Shown here: piece after piece, positions 44,207-44,536 of the stretch
How positions within the stretch are numbered: position 1 is the first letter of the stretch
How the letters are laid out: the number at the start of each line of letters is the position of its first letter
Sequence record: PQ765507
Length of the DNA stretch: 64,000 nucleotides
Strand: one strand, 5' to 3'
From: Escherichia phage 212
Translations under genes and position numbers: made by a program
Notes under the pieces: model-generated
What the model was told of the DNA's origin: nothing
Database searches by the model: none
The model's input: the letters and a program-made list of their open reading frames with translations, nothing else

Positions 44207-44507
44207 GAAACCGGGTCGCTACCGGTAAGTCGTCGGACTGAAGTTCCCTGAATAAGACCCGACTTTAAGGCGTACATGAGTTGACCTCTTAAAGTCCCTT
44301 ATCTCACAGCTGAAACGGCGCACCGAATTATCGATTCGAGGAAATATCTTTGCCGTAAGCCGAGTAGCGTTTTTGACGGAACGTTCGGATATGGTCGAGA
44401 TATGGCCTTTTAAAAATATTGAGTAGCGTCAACTGCTTAATAACCGGGTTCGAATCCCGGCGTTTCGTACAAACACTTGCCTTGCAGGTGGAACCCCGAC
44501 AAGGTAT
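44207..44507 (+). ncRNA. candidate small structured RNA (T4 species-1/2-like position)
   Basis: About 300 nt with no plus-strand ORF, paired segments (CGGGTC...GACCCG), perfect T-arm-like hairpin CCGGG-TTCGAAT-CCCGG at 44444-44460, ends at an intrinsic terminator. Confidence 0.3.
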
Positions 44508-44536
44508 AGCCCCTTCCGAAAGGTTGGGGCTTTTTT
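44508..44536 (+). terminator. rho-independent terminator
   Basis: AGCCCC-(TTCCGAAAGGTT)-GGGGCT followed by TTTTTT. Confidence 0.65.

What the first reader, a model, noticed from the sequence alone, without database searches (positions are those of the whole stretch)
44207..44536. Candidate stable structured RNA downstream of the tRNA cluster
About 300 nt between the post-tRNA ORF and a strong intrinsic terminator (44508-44536) has no plus-strand ORF. It contains a perfect tRNA T-arm-like hairpin (CCGGG-TTCGAAT-CCCGG, 44444-44460) and other complementary segments (CGGGTC...GACCCG near 44214-44257). In T4 the tRNA region also encodes two small stable RNAs of unknown function (species 1 and 2), and this could be an equivalent or a tRNA-derived element.
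Basis: partly seen in the sequence, partly recalled or inferred. Interest (0 to 1): 0.6.

Follow-up and report, generated by a model that had tools for sequence, protein, structure and literature searches.

The report
Homologs of T4 stable RNAs C/D
This stretch encodes this phage's copies of two small stable RNAs known in phage T4 since the 1970s (species 1 and 2, genes rnaC and rnaD) whose function is still unknown; comparing relatives shows that rnaC folds like a tRNA with its "anticodon" loop base-paired to a second loop.

Summary
Window 44207-44469 is orthologous to the T4-type genes rnaD (species 2, about 44203/44207-44325) and rnaC (species 1, 44331-44469). A conserved trailer hairpin and the terminator (44508-44536) follow. 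rnaC is 100% identical to the annotated rnaC of phage RB10. The window is closest to Gaprivervirus phages DCP80 and SP18, whose records do not annotate these RNAs. So the element is already known, and searchable papers up to 2025 still call its function unknown.

New here: 33 distinct rnaC homologs from at least 10 Straboviridae genera support a tRNA-like fold by covariation.
- It has a 7-bp acceptor stem, a T arm and a 3-bp D-like stem.
- A GG/T-loop elbow contact changes on both sides together.
- A roughly 60-nt hairpin is inserted in the D loop. Its apical loop (UUGACG) is the exact complement of the 6-nt loop (CGUCAA) of a 10-bp anticodon-like arm.
- Two lineages change both loops compensatorily (UUGGCG/CGCCAA and UUGAUG/CAUCAA).
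- Two lineages encode U-CCA after the acceptor stem.

In distant genera rnaC occupies a slot inside tRNA arrays. Some phages have deleted or replaced it. My best functional guess, at low confidence, is a non-decoding tRNA mimic.

The parts
43718..43951 (+). Upstream tRNA cluster (tRNA-Met CAU, tRNA-Asn GUU, tRNA-Arg UCU). It is on the same strand and is presumably co-transcribed with the two RNAs.
   Evidence: ARAGORN and Rfam tRNA hits of 61-72 bits. In RB10/T4, tRNA-Arg directly abuts rnaD.
43967..44206 (+). 79-aa ORF of unknown function (phrog_33509) inserted between tRNA-Arg and rnaD. Its stop codon abuts the conserved start of rnaD.
   Evidence: ORF list and PHROGs. Relatives carry different ORFs or a tRNA at this same junction.
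44207..44325 (+). rnaD (T4 species 2 RNA) homolog. The conserved block starts at GAAACCGGG (44207); the RB10 annotation maps to 44203. The 3' end is ...GGCGCACCG, where T4/RB10 have ...CACCA.
   Evidence: Alignment to the annotated RB10 rnaD. 18 distinct homologs have conserved 5' and 3' blocks and a variable central hairpin.
44210..44226 (+). rnaD 5' hairpin: a 5-bp stem (ACCGG/CCGGU) with a 7-nt loop GUCGCUA. It has T-arm geometry and resembles a degenerate copy of the rnaC T arm.
   Evidence: The closing pair covaries: A-U 9, G-C 4, G.U 2.
44229..44325 (+). rnaD long irregular stem: GUCGUCG/CGGCGCAC, then [A/U]GUU/AGC[U/A], then AUAAG/CUUAU, capped by a lineage-specific hairpin (ACUUUAAGG...CCUCUUAAAGU in the window).
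   Evidence: RNAalifold gives 24 pairs, 6 of them with double changes. Three unrelated apical sequences all form hairpins.
44331..44469 (+). rnaC (T4 species 1 RNA) homolog, 139 nt by the RB10 annotation. The tRNA-like body is 44332-44468.
   Evidence: 100% identical to the annotated RB10 rnaC and 98.7% to T4. It is the only hit of covariance model R1 in the window, at 155 bits and E about 1e-36.
44332..44338 (+). rnaC acceptor stem, 5' strand (CGAUUCG). It pairs with 44461-44467 (CGUUUCG) to give 7 bp that include two U.U mismatches.
   Evidence: Covariation: A-U to G-C at the third pair (11 versus 21 sequences). The U.U pairs become U-A/C-G in Tegunavirus and U-A/U-A in PM2.
44339..44341 (+). 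D-like stem, 5' strand (AGG). It pairs with 44406-44408 (CCU).
   Evidence: Nearly invariant. A-U becomes U-A in PM2 (UGG/CCA).
44342..44403 (+). Long arm, about 60 nt, inserted in the D loop. From base to tip: 7 bp, 6 bp, 4 bp, a 5' GUA bulge (44364-44366) and a 6-bp apical stem.
   Evidence: Helices covary. A second, unrelated sequence type keeps the 4-bp helix, the purine-rich bulge, the apical stem and the overall length.
44373..44378 (+). Loop L1 (UUGACG), the apical loop of the long arm. It is one half of the predicted 6-bp kissing interaction.
   Evidence: Exact reverse complement of L2. 99.5% of cells are paired across 33 sequences, and two positions show compensatory double changes.
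44404..44405 (+). GG dinucleotide at the 3' end of the D-loop region, the analog of tRNA G18-G19. It is predicted to contact T-loop positions 55-56.
   Evidence: 30 of 33 sequences have GG with a canonical T loop. The 3 sequences with CG have T loop UGCAUGC or UGCAUC, so G to C occurs together with U55 to G.
44409..44416 (+). Conserved A-rich single-stranded linker (UUUAAAAA) between the D-like stem and the anticodon-like arm.
   Evidence: Conserved in alignment A4 and in the motif table.
44417..44442 (+). Anticodon-like arm: a 10-bp stem with the 6-nt loop L2 (CGUCAA, 44427-44432).
   Evidence: 9 of 10 stem pairs show double compensatory changes. The loop is complementary to L1.
44444..44460 (+). 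T arm: CCGGG-UUCGAAU-CCCGG.
   Evidence: Sequence. The stem is 100% paired, with 2 covarying pairs (CCGGG/CCCGG, CCUGG/CCAGG, CUUGG/CCAAG).
44468..44471 (+). Discriminator-like U followed by ACA. The U, C and A are invariant in all 33 homologs. The middle base is C, giving an encoded U-CCA, in Marfavirus and PM2.
   Evidence: Alignment A4 and the motif table.
44474..44490 (+). Conserved trailer hairpin (CACUUGC-CUU-GCAGGUG) between rnaC and the terminator. Relatives that lack rnaC keep it.
   Evidence: Fold. Conserved in RB10, VR5 and TH55.
44508..44536 (+). Intrinsic terminator of the tRNA/stable-RNA transcription unit.
   Evidence: Fold. Conserved in RB10. PMC2330249 presumes, citing Broida and Abelson, that T4 transcription of the cluster terminates after the species I RNA gene.

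Best explanation
The region holds the orthologs of the phage T4 genes rnaD (species 2 RNA, about 119-123 nt) and rnaC (species 1 RNA, about 139 nt). It sits at the 3' end of the tRNA transcription unit of a Gaprivervirus-like T-even phage.

Shown here:
- Homology, synteny and strand match the T4-type genes.
- rnaC has a tRNA-like fold: a 7-bp acceptor stem stacked on a 5-bp T arm, a 3-bp D-like stem, and a GG/T-loop elbow contact.
- A roughly 60-nt hairpin is inserted in the D loop. Its apical loop UUGACG is the Watson-Crick complement of the CGUCAA loop of a 10-bp anticodon-like arm. This predicts a 6-bp kissing interaction that masks the anticodon-like loop.
- rnaD is a 5' T-arm-like hairpin followed by a long irregular stem.

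Inferred from established tRNA-processing biology:
- Both RNAs are transcribed with the tRNAs from upstream middle or late promoters and terminated at 44508-44536.
- rnaC is excised like a tRNA: RNase P cuts at the 5' side of the acceptor stem, the 3' end is trimmed, and CCA may be added or repaired after the discriminator U. This explains why rnaC occupies a tRNA slot inside tRNA arrays in other genera.

Inferred at low confidence (about 0.2): rnaC is a non-decoding tRNA mimic. Its acceptor/T handle gives processing and stability, and its kissing-locked body binds and titrates a tRNA-binding factor. One candidate is a host tRNA-targeting defence nuclease that cannot cleave the masked loop.

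The confidence below refers to identity and architecture, not to the functional guess.
For: Identity:
- blastn matches 804 phage records, including T4 and RB10, where the match is annotated rnaC and rnaD.
- The window aligns colinearly with RB10, and rnaC is identical over 139 nt.
- The closest genomes are DCP80 (100%) and SP18 (99.5%), both Gaprivervirus.

Structure of rnaC:
- The minimum-free-energy fold is -50.2 kcal/mol, z = -4.55.
- On 33 distinct homologs, 90.5% of cells are paired. 35 of 54 pairs have double changes. 0 of 500 shuffles reach these values, and slid controls give 38-45% paired.

Kissing loops:
- 99.5% of cells are paired, against 17-50% in slid controls.
- A-U changes to G-C in 6 Marfavirus-type sequences, and C-G changes to U-A in 2 Tegunavirus sequences.
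- No one-sided change occurs outside PM2.

Elbow: G74 to C co-occurs with U55 to G in exactly 3 of 33 sequences.

Processing context:
- In Moon, Pet-CM3-4, Melville and COW86c, rnaC lies between tRNA-Met or tRNA-Trp and tRNA-Gly with tRNA-like spacing.
- U-CCA is encoded in Marfavirus and PM2.

Expression in T4 (literature):
- A northern blot detects RNAC, and both RNAs are classed as late (PMC9697503).
- PMC2330249 presumes that transcription passes through the whole tRNA cluster and terminates after the species I gene.

Functional hints:
- rnaC is accessory. It is precisely deleted in Dhakavirus VR5 and replaced in TH55.
- A convergent SNP arose in the rnaD region in 3 of 3 phage BW-1 lines adapted to a semi-permissive host (PMC12685909).
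Against: - No tool here shows transcripts or RNA ends for this phage. Mature ends and CCA status are inferred.
- The kissing interaction rests on only two independent compensatory events. PM2 has one mismatch in it (an A.A pair, with a shortened loop).
- Covariation cannot tell an intramolecular kiss from an intermolecular one. Closing the ring within one molecule needs a sharp bend at the GUA bulge, which is not a recognisable K-turn.
- The Kanagawavirus and Winklervirus elbow changes may be a single evolutionary event.
- The decoy function has no direct evidence. No binding partner or defence system is identified.
- The T-loop consensus is dispensable in two genera.
- rnaC is dispensable in some natural phages. 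From memory, T4 tRNA-region deletion mutants grow on laboratory strains.
- The rnaD fold is not energetically distinctive (z = -1.17), and much of it is invariant, so it is untested by covariation.
Confidence: 0.9

Rival explanations
1. rnaC acts as a multimer. The two complementary loops pair between molecules, head to tail or as a closed dimer, building an RNA assembly.
For: The arms are unequal in length (about 26 bp against 10 bp), which makes intramolecular closure geometrically demanding (structure). RNAC is classed as a late RNA in T4 (PMC9697503).
Against: Covariation is equally compatible with an intramolecular kiss. Overall length (138-142 nt) and bulge position stay the same even where the lower long arm has a completely different sequence. 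That fits a ring-closure constraint within one molecule. No T4 process is known to require an RNA multimer (from memory).
Confidence: 0.15
2. The RNAs have no function in trans. They are degenerate tRNA relics or processing spacers, kept only because they help cut or stabilise the polycistronic tRNA transcript or its terminator.
For: rnaC sits in tRNA slots. It is missing from or replaced in some phages without loss of the flanking elements. No function has been found in 50 years (PMC3014915).
Against: rnaC is 99% or more identical in 490 of 750 records, and identical between genera whose rnaD and flanks diverge. Elements irrelevant to RNase P recognition are conserved or covary: both loops, the purine bulge and the A-rich linker. 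In T4 the RNAs accumulate as stable species.
Confidence: 0.07
3. The stretch is a cis-acting untranslated region that regulates the flanking genes (the upstream 79-aa ORF or the downstream gene at 44655) through RNA structure or termination control.
For: The BW-1 paper interprets its convergent SNP as regulatory. A conserved trailer hairpin and the terminator follow rnaC.
Against: The flanking genes differ between phages while rnaD and rnaC keep the same boundaries. In other genera rnaC is flanked only by tRNAs. The downstream gene has its own promoter-like sites after the terminator.
Confidence: 0.05
4. The region encodes small proteins, as many GenBank records annotate ('hypothetical protein' over rnaC and rnaD).
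For: Mechanical ORFs of 34-81 aa exist on both strands. Many records list hypothetical proteins under the match.
Against: Substitutions are compensatory in stems rather than codon-periodic. One- and two-base indels occur between homologs. The ORFs have TTG or GTG starts or run through the terminator. Curated T4 and RB10 records annotate non-coding RNAs here.
Confidence: 0.01

Closest known systems
Phage T4 rnaC (species 1 / band C stable RNA)
   Same: Orthologous: 100% identical to the annotated RB10 rnaC and 98.7% to T4. Same strand, and same position between rnaD and the terminator of the tRNA unit.
   Different: Nothing substantive at sequence level. The genome records closest to this window (SP18) leave it unannotated or mislabelled. 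I found neither the kissing-loop nor the D-loop-insertion model in any searchable paper. The original 1970s-80s papers could not be read.
Phage T4 rnaD (species 2 / band D stable RNA)
   Same: The 5' block (GAARCCGGGUCGCUACCGG...CCCUG) and the 3' block (...CACAGCWGAAACGGCGCAC) are conserved, and it lies directly upstream of rnaC.
   Different: The central hairpin has a completely different sequence from T4/RB10 while keeping the pairing. The 3' end is CACCG, not CACCA. It follows an ORF here rather than tRNA-Arg.
Canonical tRNA (Rfam RF00005)
   Same: 7-bp acceptor stem stacked on a 5-bp T stem with a UUCGAAU loop. A G18G19-like GG covaries with T-loop positions 55-56. A discriminator base is followed by NCA or CCA. 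It sits in tRNA arrays.
   Different: The D stem has 3 bp, with a 60-nt hairpin in the D loop. An 8-9-nt linker replaces nucleotide 26. The anticodon-like stem has 10 bp and a 6-nt loop without U33 or R37. The variable region is 1 nt. Neither ARAGORN nor the Rfam tRNA model detects it. Conversely, true tRNAs score only 14-27 bits on the rnaC model.
tmRNA tRNA-like domain and bacterial Y-RNA-like YrlA
   Same: Both are non-decoding bacterial or phage RNAs that keep an acceptor/T-arm or T-arm/D-arm tRNA mimic joined to another module.
   Different: No tag reading frame, and ARAGORN finds no tmRNA. There is no G3.U70 pair. The Rfam YrlA and tmRNA models do not hit this locus. The 5' and 3' ends form an acceptor stem rather than a Ro-binding helix.
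phi29 pRNA and other RNAs organised by loop-loop (kissing) pairing
   Same: Two hairpin loops with mutually complementary, non-palindromic sequences, supported by covariation.
   Different: pRNA loops pair between molecules over 4 bp and serve DNA packaging. For rnaC it is not known whether the loops pair within one molecule or between molecules, the kiss is 6 bp, and the scaffold is tRNA-like. There is no sequence or family relationship.

Membership tests
T4 rnaC (species 1 RNA) | Sequence homology to the annotated rnaC of T4-type phages | tested here: met
   139 of 139 nt identical to the RB10 rnaC. 98.7% identical to T4 record KJ477685, which annotates rnaC.
T4 rnaC (species 1 RNA) | Position at the 3' end of the tRNA transcription unit, same strand as the tRNAs, followed by the unit's terminator | tested here: met
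   tRNAs lie at 43718-43951 on the plus strand. rnaC is at 44331-44469 and the terminator at 44508-44536.
T4 rnaC (species 1 RNA) | Accumulates as a discrete stable RNA of about 140 nt in infected cells | not testable with these tools
   Shown for T4 by northern blot (PMC9697503). No expression data exist for this phage.
T4 rnaD (species 2 RNA) | Sequence homology to the annotated rnaD, immediately upstream of rnaC | tested here: met
   The 5' and 3' blocks are conserved with the RB10 rnaD, and the central hairpin is divergent but still pairs.
T4 rnaD (species 2 RNA) | Discrete stable RNA of about 120 nt | not testable with these tools
   Literature on T4 only.
tRNA (RF00005) | Detected by tRNA covariance or heuristic models | tested here: not met
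   ARAGORN finds only the 3 upstream tRNAs. The Rfam tRNA model has no hit in 44207-44536 even at E up to 10. The only clan hit is tRNA-Sec at 16.6 bits, E = 3.6.
tRNA (RF00005) | 7-bp acceptor stem coaxial with a 5-bp T stem and a 7-nt T loop | tested here: met
   Pairs 2-8 with 131-137 and 114-118 with 126-130 covary. The T loop is UUCGAAU.
tRNA (RF00005) | D-loop/T-loop tertiary contact (G18-U55, G19-C56) | tested here: inconclusive
   GG at positions 74-75 co-varies with the T loop (GG with UUC in 30 sequences, CG with UGC in 3). This may be a single evolutionary event, and there is no 3D evidence.
tRNA (RF00005) | 5-bp anticodon stem with a 7-nt loop (U33, anticodon, R37) able to decode | tested here: not met
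   The stem has 10 bp and the loop CGUCAA has 6 nt. The loop is predicted to be sequestered by pairing with UUGACG.
tRNA (RF00005) | 3' CCA end (encoded or added) | tested here: inconclusive
   The window encodes U-ACA. Marfavirus and PM2 homologs encode U-CCA. The C and A are invariant in 33 of 33 sequences. The end of the mature RNA is unknown.
tmRNA | tRNA-like domain plus a tag-peptide reading frame | tested here: not met
   ARAGORN reports no tmRNA and there is no Rfam tmRNA hit.
YrlA (Y RNA-like, RF02553) | Match to the family model | tested here: not met
   The only weak YrlA hit (20.6 bits, gathering score 69) lies over the true tRNAs at 43731-43850, not over rnaC or rnaD.
Kissing-loop RNA (structural class, not a homology family) | Two hairpin loops with Watson-Crick complementarity that is maintained by compensatory change | tested here: met
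   6 of 6 positions are complementary. 99.5% of cells are paired in 33 sequences. Double changes occur at 2 positions in 2 lineages. PM2 has one mismatch.

The most novel reading that the evidence does not exclude
rnaC defines an undescribed RNA family, absent from Rfam. It is a tRNA-shaped RNA with a hairpin inserted in the D loop, whose tip kisses and masks the anticodon-like loop. It is conserved in at least 10 genera of T-even-like phages. It would act as an uncleavable tRNA mimic that neutralises a host tRNA-targeting defence or another tRNA-binding factor. That would finally give a function to T4 species 1 RNA.
Probability: 0.15. Interest if true: 0.75.

Novelty: already known. Interest (0 to 1): 0.42.

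Why it matters
The element itself is the textbook pair of T4 stable RNAs, so finding it is not news.

What matters is that these RNAs have had no function since the 1970s, have no Rfam family, and are routinely missed or mis-annotated as hypothetical proteins in T-even-like genomes, including the closest relatives of this window.

The comparative model derived here gives concrete, cheap experiments for that old question:
- a tRNA-like L shape;
- a hairpin inserted in the D loop;
- a covariation-supported 6-bp loop-loop pairing;
- a U-NCA/CCA 3' end;
- natural deletion and replacement variants.

If rnaC is a tRNA mimic aimed at host tRNA-targeting defences, it would join phage tRNAs as a counter-defence tool.

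Tried and rejected
- Rfam at gathering and at permissive thresholds found no family for the region. ARAGORN found no tRNA or tmRNA.
- My first rnaD helix (UGAUGU/ACAUCA) reused bases of the GUAAG/CUUAC helix and fitted the A36 variants in only 1 of 4 sequences. The RNAalifold pairing 36-107 fits 13 of 15.
- Reading the rnaC GUA bulge by eye as a K-turn or a sarcin-ricin motif failed. The flanking pairs are Watson-Crick or G.U, not tandem G.A.
- I looked for bacterial copies. The genome scan gave only 2 GC-rich chance hits, and the covariance model did not score them.
- A third, looser viral scan added only PM2 again.
- The covariance-model realignment did not fix the one-column register shift of the 4-bp helix in the second long-arm type. 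That helix is therefore undercounted and was checked separately.
- Literature searches for any functional or structural study of RNAC/RNAD beyond 'function unknown' found nothing. The original sequence papers and the T4 genome review were not available.
- PHROGs searches on the flanking ORFs returned only families of unknown function.
- Reading the two loops as Asp-like (GUC) and Val-like (GAC) anticodons fails, because the triplets change in Marfavirus and Tegunavirus.
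Full report
WHAT IS THERE. The window carries three tRNA genes (Met, Asn, Arg; 43718-43951, plus strand). A 79-aa ORF follows (43967-44206), then about 300 nt without a credible ORF, ending in a hairpin followed by U6 at 44508-44536. The T-arm-like hairpin CCGGG-TTCGAAT-CCCGG is exactly at 44444-44460. The motif GGTTCGAATCC occurs exactly only there and in tRNA-Asn. The CGGGTC/GACCCG complementarity also exists (44212-17 and 44256-61), but it is lineage-specific and not part of any conserved structure.

IDENTITY. blastn of 44150-44560 against 50,697 phage records matched 804 of them, nearly all T-even-like phages of Enterobacterales. 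In phage RB10 the matching stretch is annotated as the non-coding RNAs rnaD ('species II RNA') and rnaC. The pairwise alignment maps rnaD to about 44203-44325 and rnaC to 44331-44469, and rnaC is identical at all 139 positions. T4 itself is 98.7% identical over rnaC. The window is closest to Escherichia phage DCP80 (100%) and Shigella phage SP18 (99.5%, Gaprivervirus). The SP18 RefSeq record does not annotate either RNA and places a 'similar to hypothetical protein' feature over rnaC. Rfam has no family for either RNA.

WHAT IS KNOWN. The searchable literature says only that RNAC and RNAD come from the T4 tRNA region and have unknown roles (PMC3014915, 2010). One paper presumes that the cluster is transcribed as one unit ending after the species I gene (PMC2330249). 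In T4 a northern blot detects RNAC, and both RNAs are classed as late (PMC9697503, 2022). One SNP in the rnaD region arose convergently in three lines of the T4-like phage BW-1 adapted to a semi-permissive E. coli strain (PMC12685909, 2025). I found no structural or functional study.

COMPARATIVE SET FOR rnaC. Pattern scans that left both loops free were run on viral contigs, metagenomes and genomes. blastn was then run with divergent members. Together these gave 33 distinct sequences, from Tequatro-, Gapriver-, Moon-, Karam-, Kanagawa-, Teguna-, Gelderland-, Marfa-, Mosuguk- and Winklervirus, Edwardsiella phage PEi20 and Citrobacter phage Ursula. No bacterial genome copy was found. Outside the T4-type genera rnaC sits inside tRNA arrays, for example between tRNA-Met or tRNA-Trp and tRNA-Gly, with tRNA-like spacers and without rnaD. 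A covariance model built from the set finds exactly one copy in the window (155 bits). It scores true tRNAs at only 14-27 bits.

STRUCTURE OF rnaC. Numbering starts at 1 = 44331. The minimum-free-energy fold (-50.2 kcal/mol, z = -4.55) and the alignment agree. On alignment A4, 90.5% of cells are paired. 35 of 54 pairs show changes on both sides. No shuffle in 500 reaches these values, and sliding the 3' partners by 1-3 columns drops pairing to 38-45%. The elements are:
- A 7-bp acceptor stem, 2-8 with 131-137. Pair 4-135 switches between A-U and G-C. The two conserved U.U mismatches become Watson-Crick pairs in Tegunavirus and PM2.
- A T arm directly adjoining the acceptor stem (114-130), with two covarying pairs.
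- A 3-bp D-like stem, 9-11 with 76-78 (A-U becomes U-A in PM2).
- A roughly 60-nt long arm (12-73) emerging from what corresponds to the D loop.
- An A-rich 8-9-nt linker.
- A 10-bp anticodon-like arm (87-112) with a 6-nt loop. Nine of its ten pairs covary.

The long arm exists in two unrelated sequence types. Both keep the same upper design: a 4-bp helix, a 3-4-nt purine-rich 5' bulge (GUA, GUGA, AUGA or AUAA), a 5-6-bp apical stem and a 6-nt loop. Total length also stays at 138-142 nt.

TWO TERTIARY FEATURES. First, the apical loop of the long arm (UUGACG, 44373-44378) is the exact reverse complement of the anticodon-like loop (CGUCAA, 44427-44432). Both loops are otherwise invariant. In Marfavirus-type sequences they read UUGGCG and CGCCAA, and in Tegunavirus UUGAUG and CAUCAA. 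These are two independent double changes that keep all six pairs. Counted alone, this helix is 99.5% paired, against 17-50% when slid. PM2 is the one partial exception, with four Watson-Crick pairs, a G.U pair and an A.A mismatch. Second, 30 of 33 sequences have GG just 5' of the 3' strand of the D-like stem, together with a canonical T loop. The three with CG (Kanagawavirus and Winklervirus) have T loops UGCAUGC or UGCAUC. A tRNA-type G18-U55 contact would thus become C-G while G19-C56 is kept. This suggests a tRNA-like elbow, but it may rest on a single evolutionary event. Finally, the base after the acceptor stem is always U and is followed by N-C-A. Marfavirus and PM2 encode U-CCA.

STRUCTURE OF rnaD. 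Eighteen distinct homologs, all from T4-type genera, share invariant 5' and 3' blocks. The central hairpin comes in at least three unrelated sequences. Covariation supports three elements. One is a 5' hairpin of 5 bp with a 7-nt loop, whose closing pair is A-U, G-C or G.U. The second is pair 36-107 (U-A or A-U). The third is the GUAAG/CUUAC helix. The outer helix GUCGUCG/CGGCGCAC is invariant and so untested. The fold energy of the window sequence is unremarkable (z = -1.17).

HOW IT MOST LIKELY WORKS. Shown: orthology, the architecture above, and the tRNA-array context. Inferred from established tRNA biology (RNase P recognises the acceptor/T-stem stack; PMC11143913):
- The RNAs are made as part of the tRNA transcript. 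A MotA-box-like TGCTTTA followed by TATTAT precedes tRNA-Met near 43634, and late-promoter motifs TATAAATA lie upstream at 40772 and 42060.
- rnaC is cut out like a tRNA and trimmed to, or rebuilt at, a U-NCA or U-CCA end.
- The acceptor/T module is probably a processing and stability handle.
- The conserved, non-tRNA parts (the kissing loops, the bulge and the A-rich linker) are probably the functional end.

My preferred functional guess, at about 0.2, is a non-decoding tRNA mimic that occupies a tRNA-binding factor, for instance a host anticodon-directed defence nuclease that cannot reach the masked loop. Three things are consistent with this. rnaC lives among phage tRNAs. It is an accessory element, precisely deleted in Dhakavirus VR5 and replaced by an ORF cassette in Gaprivervirus TH55. 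And the host-adaptation SNP lies in the neighbouring rnaD. None of this is direct evidence.

OPEN POINT. Covariation cannot say whether the loops pair within one molecule or between molecules. Intramolecular closure needs a sharp hinge at the purine bulge, which is not a recognisable K-turn. The strict conservation of arm lengths across unrelated sequences favours closure within one molecule.

VERDICT. This is a real, conserved, structured RNA locus that is already known as T4 rnaD and rnaC. Interest is moderate. It comes from the new, testable structural model for rnaC rather than from the finding itself.

Noticed in passing
L053:700-900 (Escherichia phage VR5, Dhakavirus): rnaC is precisely deleted (..GGCGCACCGA|ACACTTGCC..), while tRNA-Arg, rnaD, the trailer hairpin and the terminator are kept. 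This is a natural rnaC knock-out.
   Followed up: partly
L054:467-977 (Escherichia virus TH55, Gaprivervirus): rnaC is replaced by a cassette of about 510 bp carrying an ORF of about 125 aa. rnaD and the trailer are retained.
   Followed up: no
L002:2890-3490 (phage P479); also L054:1040-1640; insertion point in the window is about 44537: Close relatives carry an extra 184-aa ORF with its own terminator, inserted immediately after the rnaC terminator. It is absent from the window.
   Followed up: no
window 43967-44206 and the rnaD 5' junction at 44203-44207: Different phages have different things abutting the same rnaD start: tRNA-Arg, this 79-aa ORF (phrog_33509), or other ORFs whose stop codons overlap TAAGAA or TGAGAA. 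This suggests a recombination hotspot just upstream of rnaD.
   Followed up: partly
window 44474-44490: A conserved 7-bp trailer hairpin (CACUUGC-CUU-GCAGGUG) and the segment GAACCCCGACAAGG lie between rnaC and the terminator. Both are kept even in phages that lack rnaC. Their function is unknown.
   Followed up: partly
window 44362-44370 and 44421-44429: The 9-nt direct repeat GAGUAGCGU occurs twice within rnaC. One copy spans the long-arm bulge and apical stem. The other spans the 5' strand and loop of the anticodon-like arm. This may be a trace of an internal duplication.
   Followed up: no
window 44312-44317 versus 44461-44466: GAAACG near the rnaD 3' end is perfectly complementary to CGUUUC in the rnaC acceptor 3' strand. 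It could compete with the mismatched acceptor stem in the rnaD-rnaC precursor. The rnaD loop GUCGCUA is also nearly complementary to rnaC UAGCGUC.
   Followed up: no
window 43630-43665: TGCTTTA, 12 nt, then TATTAT lies upstream of tRNA-Met. It resembles a T4 middle (MotA-dependent) promoter, as described for the T4 tRNA cluster.
   Followed up: no
GenBank records under: Many T-even-like genome records annotate 'hypothetical protein', 'tRNA-OTHER' or 'tRNA-Lys' over rnaC and rnaD, or nothing at all. Only a few (the RB series, T4, GiZh) label them rnaC and rnaD.
   Followed up: partly
L003, L041, L023 (Kanagawavirus); L051 (Winklervirus): These rnaC homologs have lost the canonical T-loop sequence (UGCAUGC or UGCAUC) yet keep everything else. 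T-loop-specific recognition, for example by TrmA or TruB, therefore cannot be essential to the RNA.
   Followed up: partly
L045:1629-1766 (Acidimicrobiales MAG contig): A chance-level pattern hit ends in a T-arm-like GGTTCGGTCCC followed by ...GTACCA. The rnaC covariance model did not score it. It may be an unrelated tRNA-like or tmRNA 3' end.
   Followed up: no
window 43718-43951: This phage carries only 3 tRNAs (Met, Asn, Arg), against 8-10 in T4 and RB10, while keeping both stable RNAs.
   Followed up: no
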